Virus record (IMG/VR): IMGVR_UViG_3300030450_002076
Location: 1-54,476 of that record
Direction: 5' to 3' (one strand)
Length of the DNA: 54,476 nucleotides
Source of the DNA: a virus
Lineage: Duplodnaviria; Caudoviricetes
Below are positions 5,462-47,700 of this stretch, piece by piece. The first letter of the stretch is position 1. Every line of letters starts with the position of its first letter. The position numbers were made by a program, and so were the translations under genes. The notes under the pieces were generated by a model. That model was not told the DNA's origin, made no database searches, and worked only from the letters and a program-made list of their open reading frames with translations.

Positions 5462-6244
5462 TTATTTATTACCGTCTATCAGTTCTCCCCATAAAGAAGT
5501 TTTACCATTTATTATTTGTATGATATGAACTGTAAACAATCCATTTTTATAAAAATCTACAATCGCAAAAGCGTGCGACCAGTTAATGTTTCTATGATCT
5601 AACCAATCATTCGCTTTAGGACTCATATCTTTTAAGCATCCAATACTCCAGGCTGATTTAGGTCCATCCATATGTGTCATTGAATGTTGTTGTAAGTCAT
5701 GCCAATGTCCGTACATTATATTGCATCCCATTTTTCTGAGATGGTTTGCCGTATGGTATTGACCGCCAAATTGATGTCCGTGATAAAAATAAAGCTTACC
5801 AATCTTTAAATGCTTACCAAAAGGATAGTATGTATAACCTCTCCCTTTTAAGTCAACAGCATTCGCAAATCTATACTGAGGTATATAAGGATACTTATCA
5901 ACTGCATAATTAAGCCAGTTATCATGATTACCTTCCGTAATATACCTTTCCTTGCAGTTAGCTTTATCAAGGGATTCATCAACCATGTCCATGCCTTCAT
6001 TAACATCTTTGACATCTTTATCGAACCCTTCTATAAGATACTCAAGTGGTGGAGCTTTCTTTCTTTTAAACTTCCATGCTGAAAATGCTCCCCATTCACC
6101 TACATCTCCCAAATCAACATAAGCATCAGGCTTTACAATTTCTATTGTTCTTTTTAAAACGTTTATCGCCTTTTGATCATGTAAGGGAAAGTGTTTATCA
6201 GGTGTTACTACTACTCTTTTAACAACGCCTTTATCTACTTTCAA
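5462..6244 (-). CDS. Calcineurin-like metallophosphoesterase
   Basis: Motifs DKH, GD, GNHD, HGH, GHWH in canonical order; TTG start with AGGAG RBS. Confidence 0.88.
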   Translation of the reverse strand: MKVDKGVVKRVVVTPDKHFPLHDQKAINVLKRTIEIVKPDAYVDLGDVGEWGAFSAWKFKRKKAPPLEYLIEGFDKDVKDVNEGMDMVDESLDKANCKERYITEGNHDNWLNYAVDKYPYIPQYRFANAVDLKGRGYTYYPFGKHLKIGKLYFYHGHQFGGQYHTANHLRKMGCNIMYGHWHDLQQHSMTHMDGPKSAWSIGCLKDMSPKANDWLDHRNINWSHAFAIVDFYKNGLFTVHIIQIINGKTSLWGELIDGNK

Positions 6245-7253: not shown

Positions 7254-7934
7254 TTATCTCCTTGATATTATATTAAAACCTTGAACAAATTTAGCACCGC
7301 CATGTTTAGAAGCCATACTACGTTCTATTAATTTTTTAAATTCTCTCATGAAATACTCTTTTAATTCAAGATTACCAGTATCTTCTGACAATCTTGCTTT
7401 TACATAATAGACTATTGCTTGAGCTTGAGTTCTAGATATGTCTAAGTCAAATGATTCATCCAATAAAGCACTTATACTATAATACAATTTAGGAGAAGTA
7501 TTAAAGGCAGTCCAAGTACTACTACCATAATATTTAGTTTTTAATTGAATTACATCATTTGTTCCATTATCATCGCTTTTTGTATTTGTTTGATGCAAAC
7601 CTGCAAATTCATTAGCATCTCTTAATACTATATAACTTCCATCAGTAATGTTATCTCCGCTCATATTACCATAATTTGTATATGTTGAAGTTCTATCACT
7701 TATTTCTAACAAACCTCCATTAGATCTGTAGTGAGTTATATTTTGGTCTAATTTAGCTACATCATTAATTATATAATGAGGTGAATAAGCATATTCTATC
7801 TCTAATCCACTATCAACGCTTTCATTAGGGCTTTTATACTCTAAATAGTCATTACTGACCATATTACTAGTCTGCTGTTGAATTAAAGCTAATTTATTAC
7901 CTTTATTAAAGTATGCATATTTTTTAGACGCCAT
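7254..7934 (-). CDS. Putative tail/adaptor protein (likely start MASKKYAYF at 7934)
   Basis: GGAGGA RBS before the ATG at 7934; helical C-terminus (QAIVYYVKARL..D) resembling head-tail adaptors. Confidence 0.55.
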   Translation of the reverse strand: MASKKYAYFNKGNKLALIQQQTSNMVSNDYLEYKSPNESVDSGLEIEYAYSPHYIINDVAKLDQNITHYRSNGGLLEISDRTSTYTNYGNMSGDNITDGSYIVLRDANEFAGLHQTNTKSDDNGTNDVIQLKTKYYGSSTWTAFNTSPKLYYSISALLDESFDLDISRTQAQAIVYYVKARLSEDTGNLELKEYFMREFKKLIERSMASKHGGAKFVQGFNIISRR

Positions 7935-21688: not shown

Positions 21689-23242
21689 CTAAGCCGTTAC
21701 CCAACTTTTTGCTCTCCTTTTATTTTTATACCAGCCACTTTTACTTTCTTGTAATCCATGTGGCGGATTTGCATATTTGCATGCATATGCCAAAGCATCT
21801 ATCGTATCATCATGAGCCATACGTGGTCCAAATGTAATAATTTCACGTTGTAAATCATAGTGAGTTTTTTTTAAATGTATTTGCCCAACAGCAAATCGTT
21901 GTGCTAAAATTTCTTGTATCCTATCTCTTTTACTCATTCTATTCCCAGGCTTTTCTTCTTTAAAAGGAATAATAAATTCATTTCTTCTTTTCATCTCAGC
22001 TCTTATAGCTTGAAAGACTGGTTTAGACATTGTTGTATCTTCTATAGTAAAAAGCATAGGTTTATAAAACTTTGCTTGTTCAAATATATGGTCTACAATA
22101 CCTTTCTGATCTGTACCAGGCATACCAAGAACAGGCAGAGTTCTATTCCTAACATAGTCCAAAACGTATATGTTATTATCGGGTGTAACAGCAATAACCA
22201 ATAAAACAGAGAAATCCGAATTGCGCCTAGCTGAATCAGTTGCTGGATCAACCCCGACATAAACACTACATGGTTGTGGATCTTGCCCATCGGGAATGAC
22301 GAAAGTAATTCCTGATTCTTCATCTCTAGTAAAACTTCCTTCCCAATATTTAATATGATCTCTTGTAAAAAGCGAATCCTCTTCTGATTGAACTTCCATC
22401 ATATATTCTTGATAAAACTTATGAGGAGTTCCACTATCTTGATAGAACTTCTTTTTTCTTTCCATCTCTTTATGACCGAACCAAGAAGCCCATAGAGGAG
22501 TTCCGTCAGTTTGTAAAGCTTTGTGGGTTATAACCTTCCAACTATAATCTTCTTTAGTTTTTTTAGAATGCTCATAACCTACTAAAATTTTCTGTATAAA
22601 TGAATCAAAATGAACTGGTGTTCCATTGATTCTTAATCTACCTGTCTTCGGTTCCAAGGCAGGAAAGACGACCGCTGTAACAAGGTTTGATATCTTTGCT
22701 CTTGATTCTGGTGTGACGGTATTATTTTCATCTTCAAAATCGTCAAGAACAATAAGATCGTAACGCTTATGAAGCTTAGCACCACCACGAATACCAGAAA
22801 GATTAGACTTACTAATAAGCTTAGTACCATTTTTAAGCTCGATATCATCTTCGGTCCATTTCTTCCCTTTTAAATCACCAAAGTAATACTTAATTCTATC
22901 ATTGTATTCTATGTGATATTTAATATAATCTAAGTTAGGAACTGATATTTTAGATGATGCAGCTACCCATCCGTAAAACAAAGGGTCTTTAGTAAAAAGA
23001 AAGTCATGCATAATATTGCATTTAGTGAGTACTGTCTTTCCGTGACCTCTAGGTAAAATAACTGCTAACTGTCTTATGCTTAAATCACTACAAGCATCAG
23101 CTACTTCGTAATGAAAGAAAGGTGTTTCAGATCTCATAAAGTCATCAGGTAGAAATAATTTTCCAAACGCTATTAAGTCTTGATGAGCTAATTGTAGTTC
23201 TTCTTCAGCCTTACTTACATTATTTAGATTTATATTTGACAT
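21689..23242 (-). CDS. terL: Terminase large subunit
   Basis: Walker A PRGHGKT, Walker B LIVLDDFE, NGTP coupling motif, RNase H-like VGVDPA and HDDTIDALAYA. Confidence 0.93.
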   Translation of the reverse strand: MSNINLNNVSKAEEELQLAHQDLIAFGKLFLPDDFMRSETPFFHYEVADACSDLSIRQLAVILPRGHGKTVLTKCNIMHDFLFTKDPLFYGWVAASSKISVPNLDYIKYHIEYNDRIKYYFGDLKGKKWTEDDIELKNGTKLISKSNLSGIRGGAKLHKRYDLIVLDDFEDENNTVTPESRAKISNLVTAVVFPALEPKTGRLRINGTPVHFDSFIQKILVGYEHSKKTKEDYSWKVITHKALQTDGTPLWASWFGHKEMERKKKFYQDSGTPHKFYQEYMMEVQSEEDSLFTRDHIKYWEGSFTRDEESGITFVIPDGQDPQPCSVYVGVDPATDSARRNSDFSVLLVIAVTPDNNIYVLDYVRNRTLPVLGMPGTDQKGIVDHIFEQAKFYKPMLFTIEDTTMSKPVFQAIRAEMKRRNEFIIPFKEEKPGNRMSKRDRIQEILAQRFAVGQIHLKKTHYDLQREIITFGPRMAHDDTIDALAYACKYANPPHGLQESKSGWYKNKRRAKSWVTA

Positions 23243-24967: not shown

Positions 24968-25705
24968 TTATTTACCTCCTTTTATTTCTTTTGGTCTTTC
25001 TGCAGCTTCCAACTTATCTTTTGAGAACCCCTGAAATACTGCTCCAGATATTTGTGTTACTTGTGTTTTGTTTTTATCTTCCATATCCATTATATCGGAT
25101 AATTTAAATAATGCTTTCAATCTTGTATCTGCCTTATCGGCTAAATCAGCTTCTCTTTTTATACCGCTGATAATATAAGTCTCATCAACTCCTAATTCTT
25201 CCATTACAGGTTTTAATTCTTCTTTCATTGCTGTCCTCACTCTTGTTGTTTTAACTAATTTACCAGCCCTCATATTTGCATAATGAGGATCATTGGTAGG
25301 AAAAGCTTTTAAATAGGCTTGCTGCACATTCATTCCAGATACAACATACCCAACAAAAAGACTTTCCTTGCTAGATAGCTGATCCCTATCATCTAACCTT
25401 TGATCTCTATCTATATTGCCTCCAATAGAGTATATGTTAACTCTTCTTGAAGCGTCCATTTTATTGTTTTCTGAGATAACAAACGTACCTGTGCAAGTGC
25501 CTACATAGTAAACTATGCGCTTCTTTCCCTTCGGTTTTTGCATCTTCCCAGAACGAATAATTTGAAGCACACAACCGTCATCTGTCTTTACCCAATCGTT
25601 AAGACGACCATCCCTCCAATCCTTCAAATAGTGTATATCTGTAGGAACTTCCTCAACAGAATCAAATACTGTGTGCTCTATATTGTTTACTTTATATATT
25701 CTCAT
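24968..25705 (-). CDS. Putative terminase small subunit
   Basis: 245 aa; C-half with F..Y...GM...QAY..A helix-turn-helix and RLKAL..L oligomerisation pattern; upstream of terL. Confidence 0.55.
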   Translation of the reverse strand: MRIYKVNNIEHTVFDSVEEVPTDIHYLKDWRDGRLNDWVKTDDGCVLQIIRSGKMQKPKGKKRIVYYVGTCTGTFVISENNKMDASRRVNIYSIGGNIDRDQRLDDRDQLSSKESLFVGYVVSGMNVQQAYLKAFPTNDPHYANMRAGKLVKTTRVRTAMKEELKPVMEELGVDETYIISGIKREADLADKADTRLKALFKLSDIMDMEDKNKTQVTQISGAVFQGFSKDKLEAAERPKEIKGGK

Positions 25706-26339: not shown

Positions 26340-26612
26340 ATGAGTAAATTAATGGCAATAGTAAAGAAACTTCAAGCTACGTATGTTACAAGAATGTTAA
26401 AGGCTCCTACTAAAGGTAGTGACGCTTGGAACTTTGGAATTAAGTCAGCTACTAAGAGTGAGCTACGTAAAGCATATATGACTGACTTACGTAACATAGT
26501 TGAAGTAGCAGTACAGAATAATGATCAAGATGTTATAGATTTCTGTAAAGGTTGTGTAGAAGATGATGAGAGTGTTGAGGACTTACAAGCACAAATTAAA
26601 GGAGCTAAGTAG
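26340..26612 (+). CDS. Hypothetical protein (first early gene)
   Basis: 90 aa; AAGGAG RBS. Confidence 0.75.
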   Translation: MSKLMAIVKKLQATYVTRMLKAPTKGSDAWNFGIKSATKSELRKAYMTDLRNIVEVAVQNNDQDVIDFCKGCVEDDESVEDLQAQIKGAK

Positions 26613-26743
26613 AAATACTTAGTTCTTTTAGTTAATAACAGTTAGTTGTTGATATGTACAAGTGACTATGAATGTAGACCACAGTACACACACATCATGC
26701 ACGAGTATATATATACCAACTTATACCACACTTAGAAGGAGTG

Positions 26744-26920
26744 ATGATGATTAAGAAAACTATATATAAACACAGTATCAGAGAGTTGATAGGTAGTAAT
26801 AACCCTATGTATATGATAGGTGGTTATTTAGTAATAGTATTACATGCAGGGTTAATGGCAAGTACATTTGTTACAGTAAGATATTGTTTAGAGGTATGCT
26901 TCTCAGTCTTCAAGCCTTAG
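26744..26920 (+). CDS. Small membrane protein (58 aa, not in ORF track)
   Basis: AAGGAG RBS; MMIKKTIYKHSIRELIGSNNPMYMIGGYLVIVLHAGLMASTFVTVRYCLEVCFSVFKP. Confidence 0.55.
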   Translation: MMIKKTIYKHSIRELIGSNNPMYMIGGYLVIVLHAGLMASTFVTVRYCLEVCFSVFKP

Positions 26921-27118
26921 TAACAGATTTACTGCTTCTACCCTGAAGTGACCTCGGGACTAGGTTGTAGAGTTATGAACTACCGAGGGTGTCAGTGTGC
27001 TGGCATAATCTAGTCCTACCATTTAAAGACTATGTAAGTGAATAAATTATCAAGATATTGGCAGTCATTATGACGTAAGAATTAACCAAGCCACTTATAT
27101 AGCAAATAAAGTATCAAT

Positions 27119-27193
27119 AGCGGAGACAAGCCTGGGTAGGCTAGCCTGGCTCATAACCAGGAAGCATTGTTAGTTCGAGTCTAACCTCCGCAA
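27119..27193 (+). tRNA. tRNA with CAT anticodon (Met, initiator-like; atypical)
   Basis: Acceptor GCGGAG/CTCCGC with A1:A72 mismatch; D stem AGCC/GGCT; anticodon arm CCTGG-CTCATAA-CCAGG; T arm GTTAG-TTCGAGT-CTAAC; CCA not encoded. Confidence 0.85.
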
Positions 27194-27216
27194 CTAAAAT
27201 AAGAAGGAGAAGTATA

Positions 27217-27360
27217 ATGTGGGATATAAATGTAGGTATAGAGCTAATGTTAATGATGTTAGCAATTCCAGTAGGTATACTAGTACTATCATACTTAATA
27301 GTTAGTTTGTTAGTAGTTGTAGAAGATTATAGAATAAAGAGACAAGAACGTAAATTTTAA
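27217..27360 (+). CDS. Small single-TM membrane protein (47 aa, not in ORF track)
   Basis: AAGGAG RBS; MWDINVGIELMLMMLAIPVGILVLSYLIVSLLVVVEDYRIKRQERKF. Confidence 0.65.
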   Translation: MWDINVGIELMLMMLAIPVGILVLSYLIVSLLVVVEDYRIKRQERKF

Positions 27361-27380
27361 CTAATTAAGGAGGACACACA

Positions 27381-27521
27381 ATGTCAAATGTATTATTAGA
27401 TATTGATTGGGGTAAAGCAAAGAAGTATTTAACGAAATATGACCTTGAAGACATTCGGAGTCATAATCGTTGTAGTATTAAAACTCTTGAAGTATTAGAT
27501 AGAGTTTATAGGAAATTGTAG
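27381..27521 (+). CDS. Small hypothetical protein (46 aa, not in ORF track)
   Basis: AAGGAGG RBS; MSNVLLDIDWGKAKKYLTKYDLEDIRSHNRCSIKTLEVLDRVYRKL. Confidence 0.6.
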   Translation: MSNVLLDIDWGKAKKYLTKYDLEDIRSHNRCSIKTLEVLDRVYRKL

Positions 27522-28246
27522 CAATACAATCGGCAGTATCATGTCGTTAGGATAAGCATAGCAATATGCCCAAAGCTATATGTTATACGAGTAACATTGG
27601 CGCCAGCAATGGTCCACAGATACAAGCCTCTATGCGTACGATCTCGAAGGCAAAGAGATTGTGGTGTCACTAAGATGGTAATTAGTGTGAGTATGGTAAC
27701 ATACAATAAGATAAGGGGTAGGAATTTAGTCTGAGTGTGAGAGCGAGGGCGTGTTCCAGTATTATGGTTAATCCTTTAGTGATAAAGGGCGACACCAGAA
27801 ATACCATAGTTTATAATATCTCAGTTATAAATTGTAGTTGTAAGCGTAGTATTTACTATCTTAATAGGATAGCAAGCTACTCCGTGAGCGACTTATGACA
27901 TGTGCCGTTATCGATTAACAAAAAAGATAACTAGGGGTTAGTAGCCTCATGAAAAACAGCCACGGCGATTAGGAGCAAAGGGTTCTAGTGCTTAATTCTC
28001 TTGAAATACCAGAGAGCATACATAATCTCAAGTTATGTGTGTGTTGTGACAAAAGTACTGTAAGGGTGGGCACATTCTTATAGATATAAGTAGTCGCTGA
28101 GATAACCTAATCGATAAGAGTGATAGTCTATAACTATTGAACCTGCTAGGATACTATTCGCAAGGGTAGTGGATAAGGACAAAACCAACCTGAGGGGAGG
28201 AACATAGTCCGAAAGTCTTAGCTAATAGAGTATAATCTCAACTCTA
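27515..28246 (+). ncRNA. Large structured ncRNA, GOLLD-like (~730 nt)
   Basis: No ORF of 60 aa or more; GC higher than flanks; at least six GNRA-capped hairpins on + (27515, 27556, 27603, 27691, 27773, 28152); three hairpins with TCTCA loops; near a tRNA. Confidence 0.72.
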
Positions 28247-28275
28247 CTAATTTTCACACAAATTTTGGAGGTATT

Positions 28276-28734
28276 ATGAGTAAAGTAATATTATGTGATG
28301 TAGATGGTACAATAGCCCTTATGATGGGTAAAAGAACACCATTTGAATATATTAAGGCTGATCAAGATGAGCCTAATATGCCAGTTATTAATGCAGTTAA
28401 ACAACTAGCTGAAATTAATAAATATGATATAGTATTTTTATCAGCCAGAGAGAATGTAACATTTGCTACTGGTAGAAGTAAATACGATAATGCATATGAT
28501 CTAACAAAAGATTGGATTATAAGGCATGTATATGATAGACAAGCAGAACCTCTTGATATCAACCTTATATTAAGACAAAAAGGTGATTGGAGAACTGATT
28601 GGGTAGTAAAGTATGAGATTTATAGAAAGAATGCCTGGGATGTTGCATATGTATTTGATGACAGAGATCAGGTAGTTAAAATGTGGAGAGATATAGGTTT
28701 AACCTGTTTTCAGGTAGCCAATGGTAATTTCTAG
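28276..28734 (+). CDS. HAD-family phosphatase, T4 PNK (PseT) 3'-phosphatase-domain-like, stand-alone
   Basis: ILCDVDGTIA (DxDxT), FLSAR, R..D..VK, VFDDRDQVVKMWR, FQVA; no kinase P-loop. Confidence 0.88.
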   Translation: MSKVILCDVDGTIALMMGKRTPFEYIKADQDEPNMPVINAVKQLAEINKYDIVFLSARENVTFATGRSKYDNAYDLTKDWIIRHVYDRQAEPLDINLILRQKGDWRTDWVVKYEIYRKNAWDVAYVFDDRDQVVKMWRDIGLTCFQVANGNF

Positions 28735-28760
28735 ACTTAAGCTCAACGTGCATGGGCAAT

Positions 28761-28989
28761 GTGGAGAGTATAATAGGATGATTACCTTGCGCCTCAATAA
28801 TAACAGTAGTTATACTCACTATCCACGGGGGACGACATAGCTGACCACTTAACAGGCTCGAAAGTAACAGATGGTTCGCCCCAAAGAATTATATGTGATT
28901 AGCGTCACATTGATAGTTAACCTTATGGACCGATTTAACGGGAATTGATGACGTCTATACATTCCGTCTGCATTCTATGTGATAAGGTT
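28761..28989 (+). ncRNA. Putative cluster of structured RNA elements
   Basis: Four consecutive stems: 28761-28826, 28827-28882, 28893-28910, 28919-28989; no ORF. Confidence 0.45.
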
Positions 28990-29226
28990 TAACAGGGTAG
29001 ATAAAAAATAAAAGAAATAAAGCTTAGGGCTGTTACGTATAATCCGAAGCCAAAGAGTATTTTAAATAATATTTGTAGTAATACAAGCTGTAATCGCAGA
29101 CACTCACAGAGAATTTATAATGATTTCTGCTGCGGTTAAGGTGAATTACAGTTATGTAATATATATATTGTGTGGATATACCCTTCATTACTACACCACA
29201 CACTAGTTTATATAAGGAGGAGCGCA

Positions 29227-29382
29227 ATGATAGCGATAGGAAATGATGAACCATGTCCTTTCTGTAAAGGTAAAGATAAATTTGTAAATGATCCAGATGT
29301 TAATTTTATAGATCATTTGATGAAGGAACACCCAGCAGAGATGACTGAGTATCTATTTAAAGGAAAGAACATCGGTTTATAA
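29227..29382 (+). CDS. Small C2H2 zinc-finger-like protein (start MIAIGNDE)
   Basis: AAGGAGGAG RBS; CPFC...HLMKEH. Confidence 0.65.
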   Translation: MIAIGNDEPCPFCKGKDKFVNDPDVNFIDHLMKEHPAEMTEYLFKGKNIGL

Positions 29383-33733: not shown

Positions 33734-34024
33734 ATGTTTTATAATACAACAAATGAGACAGGGTCAGAGTTAATGAGTAGATGGATCAAAACAGCAAAAC
33801 AGGAAGAAATTATAATGACAGCTTTTGATGCATTTCCAAATGATCAATTTACACCATTTGAGATTCAAACAATGGTAAAAGAAAACTTCAAAAAAGATTT
33901 TCCTATTACAAGTATAAGAAGAGCTATAACTGATCTAACTGAGCAAGGCAAGATAGTTAAGACTAAAGAAACTAAAAAAGGTAAATATGGAAAATTAAAC
34001 TATACATGGAGAAAAAATGATTAA
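33734..34024 (+). CDS. Winged helix-turn-helix DNA-binding protein
   Basis: FTPFEI...PITSIRRAITDLTEQGKIVKT...GKYGK...W. Confidence 0.7.
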   Translation: MFYNTTNETGSELMSRWIKTAKQEEIIMTAFDAFPNDQFTPFEIQTMVKENFKKDFPITSIRRAITDLTEQGKIVKTKETKKGKYGKLNYTWRKND

Positions 34025-35753
34025 AGAGTTTGCTTTTGGATTAAATAACAGACATCATTTCGGTGATGTTAATGAGGTAGAAAAATGGGTTGGTATGGCA
34101 CAAGATACATTTATGTCTTTATGGGATTACGATGGTTATGTATCAGATTATGTTAAGAAAAAGGGTACTTTATCTAGTTATGATGGTATATTATATATGC
34201 CAGATAGATTTATATTAGATGTTGATGGTACTAATCCCACACACGCTCAAGAAATGTGTATAGGTTTAACAATATTATTAGATGACTATTGTATACCTTA
34301 TCAAGTATTCTTTTCTGGAACAGGATTTCATGTAGAAATACCAAGCACAGCATTTAGATGGAAACCATGCCCTGATTTACATTTAAAAGTAAAAGAAAGA
34401 CTTAAAGAAGCTGAAATATATAAGTTTGCTGATTCTAGTGTATCAGATAAAACAAGGCTTATAAGAGTGACTAATACTTTAAATGGAAAATCTAAATTAT
34501 GGAAAGTGCCTATAACTAATAATGAACTAAATAGCACTATAGAATCAATACAAAAAATAGCATCTAGTCCTAGAAAAGATTTTGAATTTCCAGAATTAGA
34601 ATGTGAACCAGTATTTGATGTACAAGAAAGATTAGTACCAACAGAAGGTGACAAAACTTTTGAAAAAGTAACTCTTGGCAGGAATCCTGATCCTATATGG
34701 TATCCATGTGTTCAAACGATGATGGAAGGCTGCTCAGCAGGTTCTAGACATCAAACAGCACTCAGGATTGCTGCACATTTAAGATGGAGATATCCTGAAC
34801 AAATGGTAAGAATTGCTTTAGAGGATTGGAGACAAAGAGTAGATACTACAAATAGTCCTTTTAATAAATCAGAGATGGATAAAATAGTTACAGATTGCTA
34901 TGAAGGACATAATGGTAATGGTTATAGTTATGGTTGCTCTGATACTATAATGGACACACATTGTAAGTCTACCTGTATATTGTATAAGTCTAAGAAGGGT
35001 CAACAAACTATGGATGCTGAATCTATGGAAAAAGAATTAGTTGATTTTCTGAGTACTAATCATAATCCTGTAAATATAGGTGAATTATATGGTGGAGATT
35101 TCCCTGTATATCCAGGAGAAGTAGTAGTATTGCAAGCTCCTCCTAAATCTATGAAAACTATGTTATTGCAAAATTGGATTACACAGTTAAAGAGACCTAC
35201 ATACTTTATTGAAATGGAAATGTCTCCAAGACAAATGTGGTCTAGGTTTGTAATGATAGAAGAGGGATGGAATGAAGAAGAACTCAAACAGTATTATAGC
35301 AAGTATGCTAATGGTATTAGTGAAAAGTTTGACTGGCTTACTGTAGACTATAATGCATGTTATTCTCATGAATTAAGAAAGAGAATAATGTTATTACCAC
35401 GTAAACCTGAAATAGTTGTTGTAGATCATATGGGATTATTTAAATCTCAAAGAACTGACAACAATATGAAAGTAGAAGAAGTATCACAAGCTTTAATGGA
35501 ATTGGCTATACAACAAAATGTAATCGTATTGACGGTTAGTGAAATCACAAAACAAGCATTCCACGAAGGTATGGATATAACATCTGCTAAAGGTTCATTT
35601 AGAATAGGATATAATGCTAACAAAGTAATATCTGTAACTCCTTTTAAAGACGAGCATAATTTAATACAAGCTTTACATGTTAAATGCACTGCTAATCGAG
35701 AAAGAGAAAATATAGATGTTAGATTAAACGTAGAAGGAGCAAGGATAAGATGA
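34017..35753 (+). CDS. Primase-helicase fusion: AEP primase-polymerase + PriL-like Cys domain + SF4 (DnaB-like) helicase
   Basis: ILDVD, FSGTGFH, RLIRV (AEP I-III); YPC..G.RH..YGC..C...C; APPKSMKT, EMEMS, VVVDHM, KGSF.I. Confidence 0.85.
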   Translation: MIKEFAFGLNNRHHFGDVNEVEKWVGMAQDTFMSLWDYDGYVSDYVKKKGTLSSYDGILYMPDRFILDVDGTNPTHAQEMCIGLTILLDDYCIPYQVFFSGTGFHVEIPSTAFRWKPCPDLHLKVKERLKEAEIYKFADSSVSDKTRLIRVTNTLNGKSKLWKVPITNNELNSTIESIQKIASSPRKDFEFPELECEPVFDVQERLVPTEGDKTFEKVTLGRNPDPIWYPCVQTMMEGCSAGSRHQTALRIAAHLRWRYPEQMVRIALEDWRQRVDTTNSPFNKSEMDKIVTDCYEGHNGNGYSYGCSDTIMDTHCKSTCILYKSKKGQQTMDAESMEKELVDFLSTNHNPVNIGELYGGDFPVYPGEVVVLQAPPKSMKTMLLQNWITQLKRPTYFIEMEMSPRQMWSRFVMIEEGWNEEELKQYYSKYANGISEKFDWLTVDYNACYSHELRKRIMLLPRKPEIVVVDHMGLFKSQRTDNNMKVEEVSQALMELAIQQNVIVLTVSEITKQAFHEGMDITSAKGSFRIGYNANKVISVTPFKDEHNLIQALHVKCTANRERENIDVRLNVEGARIR

Positions 35754-41705: not shown

Positions 41706-44700
41706 CTATTTCTTTACTAATCCACAGTTAAACATTTCATCAAAAACTCTTTTTGTCTTACCTTGAGATACACTGCCTTCTACAATTGATCTAGATTGTT
41801 TTGTATATTCTTTTAAACTACTTAAGTCAAATGAATCAAGCATAGATGGTAGCTTTAATGTTAAACCTTTAAAATGCTTATCACCTCCATAAAGAGCGTA
41901 CAAACTATTACCTCTTAATGCTTTTCTAGCATCACCCATAGATGAAATATCCCAATATTTCCCATCACTATCTCTTGTTCCTTGTAGAGACTTGTTAGCA
42001 AACTTAGTTATATTAGCCTCCATATTAGATATATGTGCCAAATAACTCATTGGATTATATAAACCAGTAGATTCTATTGATCTTCTAACATGACTCATTT
42101 GGTCTATAAATTTACCAAATTCTTCATCTTGTCCAAATATCTTAAAAAACCTATGATAGAAGTCTAAAGATTCTTCATACTGTAATTTAAAATTATCAAC
42201 AGGTTTGGTTTGCATTGACCATCTATAGCTTTTATATGATTCGAAGGCGTTTTGTAAATTGGCTCCAAATTTAGGGAATGATAATTGTTCCATAGTTATA
42301 TCTGTATCACCTATTTTACCTGAAACAGGGTCAGTAGAGATTAATCTATGGTCTTTATTATAGTAATGCCCATAAACACCTCTTATATCAGCAAGAGCTT
42401 TTAATGCTCTACCCATATCAGGATCATCTGCTGATGCTTTAGCCATAAATCTTAAAATTCTTTCAAATCGTTTACTAGGTTTATAGGGCATAGCTACAGC
42501 AGTACCAGCAAATATACCCACTCTATTATTAGCAGCGCTTTGATTTGCATAGTTGTATAGAAAATGCAATCCATGGTCTTTAACACCTTTCATTAAAGAC
42601 ATTTCAATAATATCATTAGCAGTAGCCATATCAGGCAAGTTGCCTAACCATTTTCTCATTCTATTGTTTAATAAAGTCTTTGCATCATATCTTAGAGTAG
42701 TACCTAATGTGTTTAAGTCACCAAAAATTCTTCTTTCAAACTGATGCAATGTTTCTATATCCCTTTTCATTTTAGGAGTTGTTCCACTATGTCGTAATAT
42801 TTCATTTAATGTAGCCATCTCAGACTGAGTTTTAATATATTCAGGCTTTCCATCAATAGGAACAACTTCTATGAAACTATCTTTTAAATTTTCAATACTA
42901 GGTTGTTTTGCATATGCAGGATTAGCTTTTAATAACTCAGAATTTTTTAATTCAATTTCTTTTATCTGATCATTAATCTTATCCTTAAGTTCGTTTTTTC
43001 TCCTAACTGATATCGGTTGTTTATCTATGTATCCCCACTTCTTTTTTAGAAACTTAATAGTGTTTAGTCCATCATTTGTTGATTTAATAAAGCTCATTAC
43101 TTGAGAACTAAATTCAGAGAAATAATCAGGATCACTAACAAATCTACTCATAGATTGTTCCATCATTTTTACAGCATCACCAGTCAAACCTTCGTAATGT
43201 CTTTGTCTAGTAGGGTCAGCATCTCTGATTTGCCACATCAATCTATCAAACATTTGACCATGAGAACCAAACTCTGCTTCCTGTTTCATATTTGCTATTA
43301 AACCATCTTCAAAAGGATTTTGAGTAGGATTTGCATATACATCGCTTTCTTCTATATCAGCTTGTTTTTTCCATTGAGATTTTTTCTTAACTTTTTGCTC
43401 TGGTCTAAAGTAGCTTTCAAATACTCTACTATTACCATATCTCCTCTTTAATGCTGCGAAAGTATTCCATTGAGGGTTATCTAAATGAGTAAAGAAATCG
43501 TCAGTAAAATCTAAAATATCGTCATATGAAGGCTTTTTTCCTCTACCCTGTGCATCATATACATCAGTCCCTAAATTGAGCAATCTATTGTATTTTTGGA
43601 GCTGAAGATCAATTAAAGCTATGTCTTCAGGCATTAAATTCTCTTCTTTTTTAGTTTTTAGATTAAATCTTCTAAATAATCTTGGTCTTTCTGTAGATTT
43701 TCCTTGAGCCATTTTTCTTAAGAATCCAATGCTATAATTTTCACTTGTAGTTGATGGGTTGTTAGGGTCATTCATTCTTGTAAAGAGTAAGTTATGTCTA
43801 GCTTCTTTTTTCATACCAAACAAACTACCGTCAACTTCTTTTGCTGCATCTATAATATACTGACCTTCAACAACTGATCTGTGACGCCAATCATTAGTAT
43901 CATAATCCATAGTAACTACCCATTCACCACTATTTTTACCATCAACATCCTTACTTTCCATTATAACTCGCTGACCTTCATGTACTTTTGTAGTTTTATC
44001 AGCTAACCATCCTAATGCACGTGGTATTTTTTGAACTACACCTATATTTCCTCTAAATGTAGTTGAATTAGCCATAGAAGCAAGAAAGTTTTGATTTAAA
44101 TTTCTGTCCGTAAAACCTTTTCCACCAGTCAAATACAAACCTTGAGTCTTAGCTTTAAATTTACTGACATCAATACCTTGCATAAAGCTCCATGTATTCA
44201 CCCTATCTATATGGTCAAACATAGTTTTGCTATGAGCCCAGTAATAATCATTTTTATCTACATCATAATCACCTTCAAATATATTTAAAACATCTAATTT
44301 ACTTGCTATCATAGAGTTTCCATAATCCTTATGAAGGAAATCTTTTAAACCTACAATCATTTTATCATTAGGTCTAGTGCTAGGATAACGAGTAGTAATA
44401 ATAGCTACTTGGTAACTTCCGTTCCATTGGTCTTTTATTATATCATGAAGCTCACCTAAATTTTTTGATAACATTAAATCATAAGATTTTTCATCCTTAT
44501 AAATGTCCTTTAATTCTAGTAATTTATTATCATCTTTGTTTACAATTCTAACCTGAAAATCGTCTCTAGCTCCAGTAAAATTACTAACTTTTGAATTTCT
44601 TTCATGATCTGGGAGAAAAACTTCTCCATATTGTTTAATCTCACCTTGATCGTAGATAGTTCCTCTAGCTTGTAAGTTTGGGTCTAAAGATTGTATAAGA

Positions 44701-47700
44701 ACAGCCTTACCTCCAAATCGTCTACCTCCTATTCTAGCAGATTGATTAATAATTGGATCAATTAACTTTTTATAAAACTGAGATAAAACCGCTTTCTCAC
44801 TTATATGAGATGGGTCTCCAAATTGTGAATAAGTTTTTAAAGCACCTAAAGCTTGTGTTGCTCCACTATTAGACTGCACCATAGATTCTAACGATTGATT
44901 GTCTAAAGTCTCATCATTAAAGAAAGCTTGTCTTTTTAAAGGATCCCCGTACAAATCTCGAAAATCATTTAATGCATTTGTTAATCTGTTTCCATAAAGC
45001 TCACCAAACATTAATTGAGCTTCTGCGCTAGTTAAATAATTATAAGAACTGATAGATAGCTTAGCTACATCTTTATGATGTATTCTATCTTGCTTTATAA
45101 CAATGGCATCATTAGGAATTTCTCTATAGCCAGAGCTTTTTAAAGGGTCAGCACTAAGAACATCATTCCAACCACTATCAAAACCTTTCATAGCGGAAGT
45201 AGTAGTAAGCATATCAGATTCACTTTTGCTAAAGTAATCATTTAAAAATTTATCATAAACGAAAACTGTTTTTCCATATACGACTACATCTCCATCTGAT
45301 TGAATAATAGGTTTAAAGAGTTCAGTTTCACCACTTGCTGCTCTACCATATTTTAATTGTAAATATCTCATATATTCTTTAGAGATATAAGTGATACTAT
45401 CATAACCACTTTCATCAGCTCTATCATGCAGCTCTCTTTTCCACCACGCTTCAAATTCAGCATCTGAATTAAAAGATTCTCTTACTGCCTGCTTAACTGA
45501 AGAACCATTATTACCATCTTTTTCATCCCAAGCACTAATACGAGTAGTCCCTCTATTTTCAAACTTATTAATAATTTCTACATCATCTGCATTCCTAGCA
45601 GATTGTTTAGTTATTTCAGAAATACCTCTTTTAAAATTTGGAGTATGAAGCAAGTTTAATCTTTTTGTTAAGTTGTCTACATCTTTTTGCTGAGATAAAT
45701 AAGGTAAAAAATCATCAGTCTTTCTTCCTGAGCCTGCAACAAATCTTTCATAAACTATTGTTCTTAATGCCATTTCATGCGCAGATGTTTTAGTAGTAGG
45801 ATTATCAATCATTCTATTATATCTTGATAGCATATCTTGGTAATGAACCCCGTTATCAATCTTACTTAAATTATCTTTATAATGATCTATCATAGATTTA
45901 TAAGTCTTGGCTATATTAATTAATTCAGTATTTTTAACAACTAAAGGTTGCATAGACTCAGATATTCTAAATATTCTACCACCATTTGTTATGCCATCTC
46001 CCATAGTTTCAGAGCCAAAATCAAGGTCTGTACCAAATTCTCTTACTGGTATATTCCCTGCTACATCTAAAGAAGTATCAAACTCATCTAGTTGAGCTTT
46101 TAATATAGATTTCTCATCTCCACTTAAATAATTAGTTTCAGCTTCAAATAAACTAAATTGTCTTTTGTGATACTTACCTCTATTGTCGTAAGTAAATAAA
46201 TCTGTATTACCTTGAGCTAATATGACTGATAATTCCATCTCATCAAATAAATCAAACATTTTAGTTTTTTGCATTCTTACTCTTCTAGCAACAGGTTTAC
46301 CTAAATTATATTGAACTAATAATCTTTCTTGAGAATTAGCTTTACCTATCAATAAACTAGTCAAGTGATCTTTTGCTTCATTAAAAGATAAAGCATGTTC
46401 AGGATTATTTAAATCAAAATTTACTATTCTTTTATTGTTAGCATCAGGCAATCTCATATCTCTTTTAATTAAGTCATCAAGATAAGTATCTCCTCCAGTT
46501 TTAATTCCATCGTTTATAGAATTTAAAGCTATTGCTTGAGTTTCTGCATCCGCATACTCCACAACACCTGATGTACTAAAATATCTTTTGAAAAATTCAT
46601 CTTGAGATAAACTATTTTTATCGGTAGGTGCTTCATATACAGCTTGTATCATATCATTTACTTCATCTTGTGCAGCTTTCTTTTGAGCATCAATAGTATT
46701 AAAGTCCATACCTAATTGTTGAAATTCATATTTAATTAAAGCTGCCTTCGTAACAGTTTTACCATTTAAAGTGACTTCTTCAGATAAGCCATCTTCATTA
46801 AATTTATACTTTATATAACCTTCTGCACGATCTTTTTGAATAATCTCATTACTTTCCAACATGCTAATTAAATGCTTAGCGTATGTAGGATTTGCTGTTA
46901 ATATATTATCAAGTGTGTTTTTAAAACCTTGATGGTCTTTAGTAGAAACAGACATAAAATCTGTAATTACTCTTCGAGCGCTTATTTGCGCATCTACAGT
47001 AGCATAATCAAGTATGTTGTCTATTAAATTCATAGTACTTTTATCTACTAAAACTTTTTCATCTCCAAGAGAAAACAGTCTACCTGAAGGAGTATCGCTT
47101 CTACCTTCTAAATCTTTAGCCCAAGTATTATAACGAGAAACTTTTAAATTAAAATCAGTATCTGTTGCATCGATAGGTGCATCTATTAATTTTAATTGCC
47201 ATCCACGATTCATTCCTGAACTTTTTGCAACTAAATCAGCATCTTTTACTGATCTCATAGAAGTCACTGCTGTAACATCCTCTATAGAAACATTGCTTTG
47301 CCTTATAATATCTTGTAAAATATAATTCTGTGTAAATGCAGCCCATTTGCCCATTGCAGGACCTCTAGTCATCATTCCTTGCTTTCCTAAATATGATTGC
47401 AGTTCTCTTATTTGCTGAACATCTACTTCAATAGGCTTTGTATATTCATACCCACTATAATCATTTTTAGCTCCTAATAAATCAATAAAGTTATTAAGGA
47501 ATAATCTTTCACCAGAAACATCATCTGCTCCCTGAATAATAAATTGTTTTTCTTTAGCGTGAGGAATAAGTCTATCTAATCCATTATCATCTACTTGGAA
47601 TATACCAGCTCTCCTTGCAAATTGTATCATTTCCTGATGGCTTTGATGAATAGGAGATAATAAATCACTAACACGTTTAGCAGAATCTTTTGCTCTATTT

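What the first reader, a model, noticed from the sequence alone, without database searches (positions are those of the whole stretch)
27515..28246. ~730-nt GOLLD-like giant ncRNA with repeated UCUCA loops
Seen: an ORF-free stretch dense in GNRA hairpins on the + strand (ATTGTA-GCAA-TACAAT, GCATA-GCAA-TATGC, CCA-GCAA-TGG, GTATG-GTAA-CATAC, CCTTTA-GTGA-TAAAGG, TACTATTC-GCAA-GGGTAGTG). Three separate hairpins display TCTCA in the loop (27819, 28026, 28236), and complementary TGAG(A) words occur at 27732, 27738, 28098 and 28191. Established: GOLLD and ROOL are large phage-associated ncRNAs, often near tRNAs, and form multimeric RNA assemblies through loop-loop contacts. Inference: a GOLLD-family or new giant RNA whose repeated loops mediate pseudoknots or oligomerisation.
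Basis: partly seen in the sequence, partly recalled or inferred. Interest (0 to 1): 0.85.

Follow-up and report, generated by a model that had tools for sequence, protein, structure and literature searches.

The report
GOLLD RNA of a marine phage
This stretch encodes a roughly 730-base GOLLD RNA, a known kind of giant phage RNA that builds RNA-only cages, here in a divergent marine-phage form that the standard database threshold just misses.

Summary
Window 27515-28245 (+) is a GOLLD RNA. Its 3' half (27837-28244) matches the whole Rfam GOLLD model (137 bits, E 1.3e-37), just under Rfam's gathering score of 150, so the default scan missed it.

Twenty-five distinct homologues from uncultured marine viral and metagenome contigs cover the full length. 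A 182-pair structure is 98.2% paired, with compensatory changes in 90 pairs; no shuffle of 500 reached this.

Of the three UCUCA loops:
- 27819-27823 pairs with UGAGA at 27738-27742, a kissing loop supported by three covarying pair types.
- 28236 is the family's invariant L27 hub loop.
- The proposed partners at 28098 and 28191 are not supported.

The RNA has one P21 hairpin, as do GOLLDs of two other Streptococcus species; the solved S. agalactiae GOLLD, a dodecamer, is described as lacking P21b. Marine metatranscriptome contigs cover 27548-28298 exactly.

By analogy to solved GOLLD structures it most likely self-assembles into a dihedral RNA cage. Its biological role remains unknown. Verdict: new member of a known kind, of moderate interest.

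The parts
27515..27530 (+). 5'-terminal tetraloop hairpin (AUUGUA-GCAA-UACAAU) abutting the conserved core; overlaps the stop codon of the unconserved small ORF 27381-27521
   Evidence: Single-sequence folds of the 25 nt before the conserved UCGGCAG put a tetraloop hairpin at this spot in 22 of 25 homologues. L141 folds otherwise by MFE, and L136 and L151 fold into two weak short hairpins. Stems differ (AUUGUA/UACAAU, UGUC/GACA, AUUC/GAAU, AUUGC/GCAAU, UUUC/GAAA) and loops are GCAA, GUAA, UUCG or UUAG.
27531..27625 (+). 5' multi-helix junction. Closing helix GUAUC 27536-27540 x GAUAC 27619-27623; GAUAAG plus hairpin 27556-27569 (G[C/U]AA loop); variable hairpin about 27575-27598; hairpin 27602-27613; then AAGC
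   Evidence: Helices 1-3. The same order of motifs is seen in outgroup GOLLDs L092, L041, L031 and L043 and in three streptococcal GOLLDs. Their closing helices are differently spelled but complementary: GUGUC/GACAC, GCUUC/GAAGC, GCCUGG/CCAGGC, GCUUAA/UUAAGC, GCUUAG/CUAAGC (read by eye).
27626..27719 (+). Second arm of the 5' domain. Helix 27626-27631 x 27714-27719 encloses hairpins with invariant loops GAAGGCAAA (27646-27654), GAUGGUAA (27674-27681) and GUAA (27696-27699)
   Evidence: Helices 4-7 (97.8-100% paired, 8 pairs with compensatory change). Loop conservation is 23, 25 and 25 of 25.
27721..27757 (+). Hairpin arm (GGAAU 27721-27725 x GUUCC 27753-27757; GUCU 27729-27732 x GGGC 27747-27750) whose loop carries UGAGA 27738-27742, the 5' side of the kissing loop
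   Evidence: Helices 8-10; kissing loop tested alone.
27759..27804 (+). Three-step arm capped by a GNRA loop (GUGA 27779-27782)
   Evidence: Helices 11-13. The loop is GUGA in 20 and GUAA in 5 of 25.
27806..27835 (+). Last hairpin of the 5' domain; its loop carries UCUCA 27819-27823, the 3' side of the kissing loop
   Evidence: Helix 14. Kissing loop 27738-27742 x 27819-27823: 95.2% of cells paired, 3 of 5 pairs and 7 cells with change on both sides, 0 of 500 shuffles as high, slid controls at most 1. Variants are GAGA/UCUC (20 rows), GAC[A/U]/UGUC (L140, L155, L128, L132) and GGUG/CACC (L123).
27837..27899 (+). First element of the conserved 3' domain: a long bulged hairpin with the 3'-side junction UCCGUGAGCGA (27881-27891; tentatively J13/15)
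   Evidence: Rfam alignment, model positions 1-62; helices 15-16.
27882..27965 (+). Pseudoknot: CCG 27882-27884 (in the junction) pairs with CGG 27963-27965 (just 5' of the long-range stem)
   Evidence: Found by my all-against-all column scan. Helix 17: 3 of 3 pairs covary, 21 cells changed on both sides, 100% paired (CCG/CGG, CUG/CAG, CUA/UAG, UCG/CGA, UCA/UGA).
27900..27962 (+). A-rich linker, variable in length and sequence among homologues
   Evidence: Poorly alignable, with indels. It corresponds to the unstructured stretch of the Rfam model. In env-38 the equivalent linker (nt 497-538) is disordered inside the cage (PMC12286853, section 7).
27966..28113 (+). Long-range stem CGAUUAGG 27966-27973 x CCUAAUCG 28106-28113. 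It encloses a variable hairpin (27998-28014), the hairpin 28019-28039 (loop UCUCAAG, tentatively L20) and a single long hairpin 28046-28097 (loop GGCA 28069-28072, tentatively P21/L21)
   Evidence: Helices 18 and 20-23. The GGCA loop is invariant in 25 of 25 while its closing pair takes 4 forms. One of the two hairpins of the Rfam model's three-way junction (about 16 model positions, roughly 233-248) is absent. The same gap is seen in streptococcal GOLLDs.
27980..28144 (+). Second pseudoknot: GGGUUC 27980-27985 pairs with GAACCU 28139-28144
   Evidence: Helix 19: 100% paired, 3 pairs with compensatory change. The Rfam consensus has complementary words at the same places (GgugaC / GucacU).
28122..28222 (+). 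Hairpin 28122-28138. Stem 28145-28152 x 28215-28222 encloses hairpin 28153-28170 (invariant GCAA loop 28160-28163), the invariant GGAUAAG 28171-28177 and a length-variable hairpin 28177-28210
   Evidence: Helices 24-28. GCAA is present in 25 of 25 with 3 closing-pair forms; GGAUAA in 23 of 25.
28227..28245 (+). 3'-terminal hairpin with loop AUAAUCUCA (28232-28240), the hallmark L27 loop of GOLLD
   Evidence: Helix 29: 5 of 5 pairs covary while UCUCA is invariant in 25 of 25. It matches Rfam consensus GUAaUCUCA.
27119..27194 (+). tRNA-Met (CAT), 320 nt upstream (context)
   Evidence: ARAGORN; Rfam tRNA 31.4 bits. A tRNA-Met lies within about 1 kb of the RNA in 7 of the 20 related loci scanned, and no other tRNA type was found there.
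28276..28734 (+). Downstream gene: stand-alone Pnkp-type HAD phosphatase (context)
   Evidence: PF25109 at 8e-38; PHROG 505 'polynucleotide kinase', C-terminal part only. It lies next to the RNA in 17 related loci.

Best explanation
Window 27515-28245 (+ strand) encodes a GOLLD RNA of about 730 nt, carried by an uncultured marine tailed phage. It lies between the packaging genes (- strand) and the replication genes (+ strand), 320 nt downstream of a phage tRNA-Met.

Shown here:
- It has the complete conserved GOLLD 3' domain (27837-28245).
- Its 5' domain of about 320 nt has a first junction with the same layout as in other GOLLDs, including streptococcal ones.
- The whole fold is maintained by compensatory evolution.
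- It contains two covarying pseudoknots and one covarying kissing loop (UGAGA 27738 x UCUCA 27819).
- It is present in marine RNA libraries.

Inferred from solved GOLLD structures (env-38 14-mer; S. agalactiae 12-mer): the RNA folds into separate 5' and 3' domains, and many copies assemble without protein into a closed dihedral cage. The 3' domains would form the rings, through L20 CUCA pairing with the junction UGAG of a neighbour and the self-complementary GC of the invariant GGCA loop joining the two halves. The 5' domains would form the caps, possibly through the covarying kissing loop. The variable A-rich linker would face the interior. Because it has a single P21 hairpin and a short 5' domain, like the 700-nt streptococcal RNA, I expect a smaller cage (about 12 copies) rather than the 14-mer.

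What the cage does for the phage is not known.
For: - Rfam GOLLD match over model positions 1-416, 137 bits, E 1.3e-37 and 8.2e-40. Three of the five subfamily members scored pass Rfam's own cut-off: L123 166.9, L155 166.1, L142 161.6 bits.
- Strand-specific stability: z -4.74 on + against -1.01 on -.
- Twenty-five distinct full-length homologues. A 182-pair structure is 98.2% paired against 89.1% in shuffles. Ninety pairs have change on both sides against 47.7, with 0 of 500 shuffles as high. Slid controls give 33-42% paired and 14-22 such pairs.
- Kissing loop tested alone: 0 of 500 shuffles as high. Pseudoknots are 100% paired with 3 covarying pairs each.
- The 5' domain HMM also hits more distant GOLLD loci: L092 4e-11, L041 1e-7, L031 1e-4. 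The first junction shares its motif order with streptococcal GOLLDs.
- Streptococcus minor and S. porci GOLLDs show the same one-hairpin P21 against the Rfam model.
- Published structures and contacts: PMC12286853 (section 7 and passages read) and PMC12990946 (passages read).
- RNA libraries: in a marine metatranscriptome a 754-nt contig covers 27548-28298 with 0 differences at word depth 71. Partial contigs occur in three further runs from 2 samples of 1 study.
- Context typical of GOLLD: a phage genome with a tRNA nearby.
Against: - The window's own score (137) is below Rfam's gathering score (150). One relative scores only 108.6 and the default Rfam scan reports nothing.
- No promoter-like site above shuffle expectation and no terminator-like site, so the transcript ends are undefined.
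- The RNA-library evidence comes from assembled contigs of a single study. These cannot show strand, ends or level, and DNA carry-over is not excluded.
- Multimer formation is inferred from two other GOLLD RNAs, not tested.
- My helix names (L20, P21, L27 and others) are assigned by order against the Rfam consensus and the papers' text, not against their figures.
- Whether the kissing loop is within one molecule or between molecules cannot be told from covariation.
- A covariance model of the kissing-loop module (27719-27837) found only one weak match (L092, E 0.42) in 100 other GOLLD loci. That half of the 5' domain may therefore be lineage-specific.
- L20 x junction complementarity shows no covariation here.
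Confidence: 0.85

Rival explanations
1. It is a GOLLD RNA, but its working form in the cell is not an empty RNA-only cage. It acts with partners encoded beside it. For example, it could hold or shield the phage tRNA-Met or damaged host tRNAs for the neighbouring Pnkp-type phosphatase, as part of a tRNA repair or counter-defence module.
For: A stand-alone Pnkp phosphatase gene starts 31 nt after the RNA. It lies beside the RNA in 17 related loci. tRNA-Met is within about 1 kb in the window and in 7 of 20 related loci. Kretsch et al. speculate that the cages might enclose tRNAs (PMC12286853, discussion passage read).
Against: The phosphatase link is confined to this phage lineage. None of the other 116 viral and 120 genome GOLLD loci has a tblastn match at E 1e-5 within the DNA fetched, so it may be plain synteny. 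No kinase or RNA ligase was found among the 20 window ORFs scanned against Pfam. There is no direct evidence of any interaction. Searches for GOLLD with 'polynucleotide kinase' found no relevant paper (3 hits, all unrelated plant papers).
Confidence: 0.1
2. It is a long structured 5' leader (cis-regulatory element) of the downstream phosphatase operon rather than a free-standing RNA.
For: The RNA ends 31 nt before the phosphatase start codon, on the same strand, and no terminator-like site lies between them. The longest metatranscriptome contig runs 23 nt into the ORF, to 28298.
Against: The same RNA sits next to different downstream genes in relatives. The phosphatase is 400 nt further down in L132, and no phosphatase match was found in several other relatives, though some loci end close to the RNA. 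Across the family it neighbours tRNAs, not a fixed gene. GOLLD RNAs are described as stand-alone RNAs (PMC12286853).
Confidence: 0.04
3. It is a new giant RNA family that only resembles GOLLD, and is not a member.
For: The score is below Rfam's gathering threshold. One model hairpin is missing. The second half of the 5' domain was not found in other GOLLD loci.
Against: E is 1.3e-37 over the full model, with all other elements in order. Close relatives pass the threshold. Graded intermediates L041 and L092 link it to typical GOLLDs. The missing hairpin is also missing in accepted streptococcal GOLLDs that score 263 and 275 bits.
Confidence: 0.01
4. The stretch is protein-coding or a chance structure, not an RNA gene.
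For: Small ORFs of 31-55 aa exist in it. Some relatives have ORFs of up to 106 aa on the + strand.
Against: The longest + strand ORF ranges from 24 to 106 aa among 25 homologues, so no reading frame is conserved. Substitutions are overwhelmingly compensatory in helices. There is a strong match to an RNA family.
Confidence: 0.005

Closest known systems
GOLLD RNA, Rfam RF02032 (Weinberg et al. 2009, recalled; described in PMC12286853)
   Same: The full 3'-domain architecture and hallmark words are present: UAAUCUCA terminal loop, GUGGAUAAG, AAGAGUG, and the GAAAG-type junction (GCAAAG here). There is a variable A-rich linker, a variable 5' domain, a phage location and a tRNA neighbour.
   Different: It scores 137 bits, against 180-322 for 12 other IMG/VR GOLLDs outside this lineage and its two nearest outgroups. 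One hairpin of the P21 three-way junction is missing and another hairpin (model about 168-187) is shortened. The L24 loop is an invariant GCAA tetraloop where the consensus has a five-base loop.
Streptococcus agalactiae GOLLD, 700 nt, dodecamer (PDB 9L0R; Wang et al. 2025 as summarised in PMC12990946)
   Same: Similar length (about 730 against 700 nt). It has a single P21 hairpin, the state seen in GOLLDs of two other Streptococcus species and described for S. agalactiae (lacks P21b). The first junction of the 5' domain shares the motifs GAUAA-GNRA hairpin-AAA, GCCAGNAAUGGUC and closing helix plus AAGC with streptococcal GOLLDs. A loop-loop kiss involving the last 5'-domain hairpin is reported there (L10 x L12').
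   Different: The second half of the 5' domain looks different in the streptococcal sequences. I compared with S. minor, S. porci and S. suis sequences, not with the solved S. agalactiae RNA itself. The equivalence of my kissing loop to L10 x L12' is a guess from helix order.
env-38 GOLLD, 833 nt, 14-mer with D7 symmetry (PDB 9MEE; PMC12286853)
   Same: Marine metagenomic origin and a position downstream of a tRNA-Met. The 5' and 3' domains are separate. L27 serves as an intramolecular hub and L20 x J13/15 as a ring-forming kissing loop (section 7 read).
   Different: The window's RNA is about 100 nt shorter. It has one hairpin where env-38 has P21a and P21b with two self-kissing loops.
ROOL and OLE RNAs
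   Same: They are large ornate RNAs. ROOL is also phage-associated, lies near tRNAs and forms cages (PMC12286853).
   Different: No match to either Rfam model at E up to 10. Their sequences and folds are described as unrelated.

Membership tests
GOLLD RNA (RF02032) | Covariance-model score at or above Rfam's gathering score (150 bits) | tested here: not met
   The window scores 137 bits, E 1.3e-37, over model positions 1-416. Of five members of its subfamily, three pass (166.9, 166.1, 161.6) and two do not (137, 108.6). The cut-off is a curation threshold, not a structural feature. The E-value and full-length alignment leave no doubt of homology.
GOLLD RNA (RF02032) | Conserved 3'-domain helices kept by base pairing, in the order of the family consensus | tested here: met
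   All consensus elements align except one hairpin of the P21 junction. Helices 15-29 are 90.5-100% paired, with compensatory change in every helix.
GOLLD RNA (RF02032) | Hallmark invariant words: terminal loop UAAUCUCA, GUGGAUAAG, and the long-range stem flanked by GAAAG-type junctions | tested here: met
   UCUCA is present in 25 of 25 and GGAUAA in 23 of 25. All 15 such non-subfamily loci checked against Rfam gave a GOLLD match, 13 of them at or above the 150-bit cut-off (L092 142.7; L061, cut at its 5' end, 100.1).
GOLLD RNA (RF02032) | A less conserved 5' domain of some 300-400 nt joined by a variable linker | tested here: met
   The 5' domain is 27515-27835 and the linker 27900-27962. Its first junction is shared with outgroup and streptococcal GOLLDs. 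Its second half was not found elsewhere.
GOLLD RNA (RF02032) | Encoded by phages or prophages, often beside tRNA genes | tested here: met
   The window is a 98%-complete virus record with terminase and primase-helicase genes. tRNA-Met lies 320 nt upstream.
GOLLD RNA (RF02032) | Self-assembly into a closed dihedral homo-oligomer (10-14 copies) | not testable with these tools
   Known for env-38 and S. agalactiae GOLLD (PMC12286853, PMC12990946). Here only the loops that make those contacts can be checked. The GGCA loop is invariant, L20 and the junction are complementary in 89% of cells, and the GCAA L24 loop is invariant.
GOLLD RNA (RF02032) | Expressed as RNA | tested here: inconclusive
   Exact-match contigs occur in four RNA-library runs from 2 samples of 1 study, the longest covering 27548-28298. 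Contigs give no strand, ends or level, and DNA carry-over is not excluded.
ROOL / OLE | Match to the family covariance model | tested here: not met
   No match at E up to 10 in 26800-28900.

The most novel reading that the evidence does not exclude
The covarying kissing loop of the 5' cap (GAGA/UCUC, GACA/UGUC, GGUG/CACC) is an intermolecular contact. In that case it would work as an assembly code: related marine phages carry mutually incompatible versions, so their GOLLD cages cannot mix in co-infected cells. Two versions (UCUCA and UGUCA) occur in the same metatranscriptome sample. Separately, in this lineage the cage may be functionally tied to the adjacent tRNA-Met and Pnkp-type phosphatase, which would point to a role in tRNA protection or repair.
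Probability: 0.1. Interest if true: 0.75.

Novelty: new member of a known kind. Interest (0 to 1): 0.35.

Why it matters
GOLLD is one of very few natural RNAs known to build protein-free cages, and its function is still unknown.

- This locus shows that a whole marine-phage lineage of GOLLD RNAs sits at or below the Rfam threshold, so routine annotation misses some of its members.
- It provides a compact (about 730 nt) natural variant with one P21 hairpin. That makes it a useful test of how helix content sets cage size.
- It offers a clean covarying loop-loop contact that can be tested by compensatory mutation.
- It gives a fixed gene neighbourhood (tRNA-Met and a Pnkp-type phosphatase) that might hint at function.

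None of this changes what GOLLD is understood to be.

Tried and rejected
- Default Rfam scan of the whole window: nothing at gathering thresholds. The hit appears only with E-value reporting.
- blastn of 27100-28280 against 50,697 phage records: no match.
- TerL tblastn against the same records: best identity 25%. There is no cultured relative and no host call.
- Subfamily-specific pattern in 185,579 prokaryote genomes: 0 matches.
- nhmmer of the 5'-domain profile against 120 genome GOLLD loci: 0 hits. No host could be inferred.
- Pairing of L27 AUCUCA with UGAGAU 28098-28103: 94% paired but no change on both sides, 215 of 500 shuffles as high, and 4 of 25 sequences break one pair uncompensated. 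Rejected.
- Pairing of L20 CUCA 28027-28030 with UGAG 27885-27888: 89% paired, one double change, 153 of 500 shuffles as high. This is conserved complementarity only. Part of the shortfall is an alignment shift in 4 rows. Across other GOLLDs I could find 3-4-nt complements by eye, but words that short are expected by chance.
- TGAG at 28191 lies in a hairpin loop whose length and sequence vary among homologues, so it is not a conserved partner.
- RNAalifold proposed long-range pairs 27532-27534 with the linker end, and with a different partner in the smaller alignment. These are inconsistent and were dropped.
- Covariance model R1 of 27719-27837 searched over 100 other GOLLD loci: one weak match (L092, 20.5 bits, E 0.42). 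The model is narrow (effective sequence number 1.11), so this says little. The remaining 139 loci were not searched.
- Possible kissing-loop complements in outgroups L041 (CCUA/UAGG) and L031 (UGGA/UCCA) were seen by eye in a MAFFT --add alignment. That alignment is too uncertain to count.
- Promoter and terminator scan: 11 promoter-like sites against 7.6 expected, 0 terminators. Uninformative.
- Parts of 26600-29300 without metatranscriptome contigs (for example 28329-28874) and the depth contrast (71 against 6-20 in flanks) come from contigs. By the tool's own caveat they cannot rank expression.
Supplementary files of the two structure papers, which hold sequences, alignments and covariation tables, were not seen. 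They may already contain this subfamily or this kissing loop.
Full report
**What is there**

The window is a complete IMG/VR virus record (54,476 bp, CheckV completeness 98%). It is a tailed phage. Packaging and structural genes lie on the - strand: TerL 21689-23242 and TerS 24968-25705. Replication genes lie on the + strand: primase-helicase 34017-35753. The finding lies early in the + strand block. The order there is:
- tRNA-Met(CAT), 27119-27194
- two small unconserved ORFs
- the RNA
- a stand-alone Pnkp-type HAD phosphatase, 28276-28734 (PF25109, 8e-38)

**Check of the observation**

- TCTCA occurs three times, against 0.56 expected from dinucleotide-preserving shuffles (a share of 0.013 reached 3). 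TGAG is not enriched: 6 against 3.3.
- No ORF of 60 aa or more lies in the stretch; ORFs of 31-55 aa do.
- The + strand folds with z -4.74, with 0 of 20 shuffles as stable. The - strand gives z -1.01.

**Identity**

Rfam at gathering thresholds reports nothing in the window. With E-value reporting, the GOLLD model RF02032 matches 27837-28244 over all 416 positions (137 bits, gathering score 150, E 1.3e-37). No ROOL, OLE or other large-RNA hit appears (one search gives the same place at 8.2e-40). Because Kretsch et al. give the env-38 3' region as residues 421-833, I infer that the 416-position model represents the conserved 3' domain.

Scores of other GOLLDs set the context:
- Twelve IMG/VR GOLLDs outside this lineage and its two nearest outgroups score 180-322 bits. 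A 13th, L061, is cut off at its 5' end and scores 100.1.
- Relatives of the window score 108.6-166.9, and three of five pass the threshold.
- The nearest outgroups, L041 and L092, score 168 and 143.

So this lineage sits at the divergent edge of the family.

**Relatives**
- A pattern of GOLLD 3'-end words retrieved at least 119 viral stretches and at least 120 stretches in prokaryote genomes or MAGs of many phyla.
- Only a few of the viral stretches match the window along its full length.
- Patterns from the 5' domain added more viral contigs and 27 metagenome contigs, some with TARA names. They found none in 185,579 prokaryote genomes.
- After removing duplicates and truncated copies, 25 distinct full-length sequences remain, at roughly 70-90% identity.
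- Conservation starts sharply at the 5' hairpin and stops after the 3' hairpin.
- No cultured phage is close: blastn finds nothing and TerL is at most 25% identical.

**Structure**

I combined RNAalifold helices with an all-against-all scan for covarying antiparallel stacks into 182 pairs in 29 helices. Counted on the 25 sequences:
- 98.2% of cells are standard pairs, against 89.1% in shuffles.
- 90 pairs show change on both sides, against 47.7 in shuffles.
- 0 of 500 shuffles reach any of the five measures.
- Sliding the partners by 1-3 columns drops pairing to 33-42% and covarying pairs to 14-22.

The structure was partly derived from these sequences, which favours it over the slid controls. 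The amount of compensatory change is still far beyond that bias.

Three non-nested contacts stand out:
1. CCG 27882-27884 with CGG 27963-27965. Five spellings occur, and it is 100% paired.
2. GGGUUC 27980-27985 with GAACCU 28139-28144. It is 100% paired with three covarying pairs, and the Rfam consensus has complementary words at the same places.
3. UGAGA 27738-27742 with UCUCA 27819-27823.

**The UCUCA loops**

- *27819-27823.* This loop pairs with the loop at 27738-27742. Tested alone, 95.2% of cells pair. Three of five pairs and seven cells changed on both sides, no shuffle of 500 was as high, and slid controls gave at most one. The variants are GAGA/UCUC in 20 rows, GAC[A/U]/UGUC in four (L140, L155, L128, L132) and GGUG/CACC in one (L123). 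Cells count sequences, not events, but these are at least two independent switches.
- *28236-28240.* This is the invariant L27 loop of the whole family. In env-38 it pairs with P23 and J24/26 and touches four more elements (PMC12286853, section 7).
- *28026-28030.* This is the loop I take to be L20. It is complementary to UGAG 27885-27888 in the junction I take to be J13/15. That matches the ring-forming kissing loop of env-38 (B7) and of the S. agalactiae RNA (L15 x L20'). In this set the complementarity is only conserved: 89% paired and no covariation.

Only the window and L128 spell this middle loop UCUCA. The threefold repeat of one word is therefore partly coincidence: three different contacts that happen to use similar words.

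**Comparison with solved GOLLDs**

- The review PMC12990946 (passages read) states that the 700-nt S. agalactiae GOLLD forms a dodecamer and lacks P9, P11a-c and P21b. The 833-nt env-38 RNA has P21a and P21b, each with a self-kissing loop, and forms a 14-mer. The review says such differences in helices change the stoichiometry.
- The window RNA lacks one of the two hairpins of that junction. GOLLDs of Streptococcus minor and S. porci show the same gap against the model.
- The remaining hairpin has an invariant GGCA loop (25 of 25) over four different closing pairs. L24 is an invariant GCAA over three closing pairs. Conserved loops on covarying stems are what tertiary or quaternary contacts predict. 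The reported contacts are L21 x L21'' and L24 with P21''.
- The first junction of the 5' domain has the same motif order in outgroup GOLLDs and in three streptococcal GOLLDs, with differently spelled complementary closing helices (read by eye). The 5'-domain profile hits L092, L041 and L031.
- The second half of the 5' domain, which holds the kissing loop, looks different in streptococci. My narrow model did not find it elsewhere.
- The S. agalactiae cap uses a kiss between L10 and L12'. By helix order my kissing loop could be its counterpart, but that is a guess.

**Expression**

One search found marine RNA libraries holding the stretch. Laying four runs from one study and two samples gave:
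- a 754-nt contig matching 27548-28298 without a difference (word depth 71)
- contigs covering 27550-28071, 27645-28079 and 27663-27963 in the other three runs
- short flank contigs at lower depth

These are assembled contigs. They show that the sequence is present in RNA libraries. They do not show strand, ends or level, and DNA carry-over cannot be excluded. A second contig in the same run carries the UGUCA loop variant.

**Context**

- Synteny is conserved in relatives: TerL, TerS, variable small ORFs, the RNA, then the phosphatase.
- The phosphatase accompanies the RNA in 17 loci of this lineage, including outgroup L092. It accompanies none of the 236 other GOLLD loci within the DNA fetched.
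- tRNA-Met is within about 1 kb in the window and in 7 of 20 related loci, upstream or downstream.
- env-38 was also found downstream of a tRNA-Met (PMC12286853).
- I found no paper linking GOLLD with polynucleotide kinase and none on marine metatranscriptomic GOLLD (listings only).

**Mechanism and verdict**

Shown here: homology to GOLLD, a fold kept by compensatory evolution on the + strand, two pseudoknots, one kissing loop and presence in RNA libraries.

Inferred: protein-free assembly into a dihedral cage using the contacts above, probably nearer the 12-mer than the 14-mer.

Unknown: the biological role.

This is a new, divergent member of a known family.

Noticed in passing
window 28276-28734 (+): A stand-alone Pnkp-type HAD phosphatase (PF25109 8e-38; only the C-terminal part of the 'polynucleotide kinase' PHROG) starts 31 nt after the RNA. 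It lies beside the RNA in 17 related loci and in none of 236 other GOLLD loci. No kinase or RNA ligase was found among the 20 window ORFs scanned against Pfam.
   Followed up: partly
window 27119-27194 (+); L132 6996-7068; L057 1948-2020; L126 6775-6844; L138 3163-3235: tRNA-Met(CAT) is the only tRNA near the RNA in this phage group. It lies sometimes upstream and sometimes downstream. I did not determine whether it is an initiator, elongator or tRNA-Ile2-type.
   Followed up: partly
L126 about 5670-5730, L128 about 4070-4130, L156 about 7300-7320 (equivalent to between window 27725 and 27727): Three relatives carry an insertion at the same point of the 5' domain: about 60 nt with two extra hairpins in L126 and L128, and 19 nt in L156. 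This looks like a tolerated expansion site.
   Followed up: no
L041 1050-1144; L142 1181-1272; L092 9350-9431; L041 845-925; L032 1218-1637; L018 787-1201; L056 358-765: ARAGORN calls a 95-nt 'tRNA-Stop (tta)' just 5' of the outgroup GOLLD in L041. Short (80-90 nt) matches to the tmRNA model lie next to GOLLD in three loci, and full-length tmRNA matches lie in three others.
   Followed up: no
L160, L180, L190, L217, L221, L237 (genome contigs): The GOLLD 3'-end word pattern occurs on contigs binned as archaeal MAGs (Methanophagales, Nanoarchaeota, Methanosarcinales, Methanobacteriota, Nitrosocosmicus). These were not checked with the Rfam model and may be mis-binned viral contigs.
   Followed up: no
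window 27750-27862 (run X1, record 4): The same metatranscriptome run holds a second, 93%-identical contig with C>G at 27820. This is the UGUCA version of the kissing loop, so two loop variants co-occur in one sample. The partner loop lies outside that contig.
   Followed up: no
window 41706-50036 (-): A single 2776-aa ORF lies in a 54-kb phage genome. It was not examined.
   Followed up: no
window 27217-27360 and 27381-27521 (+): Two small ORFs (47 and 46 aa) lie between the tRNA and the RNA. They have no Pfam or PHROG match and no tblastn match in any related locus. The second ends inside the RNA's first hairpin.
   Followed up: partly
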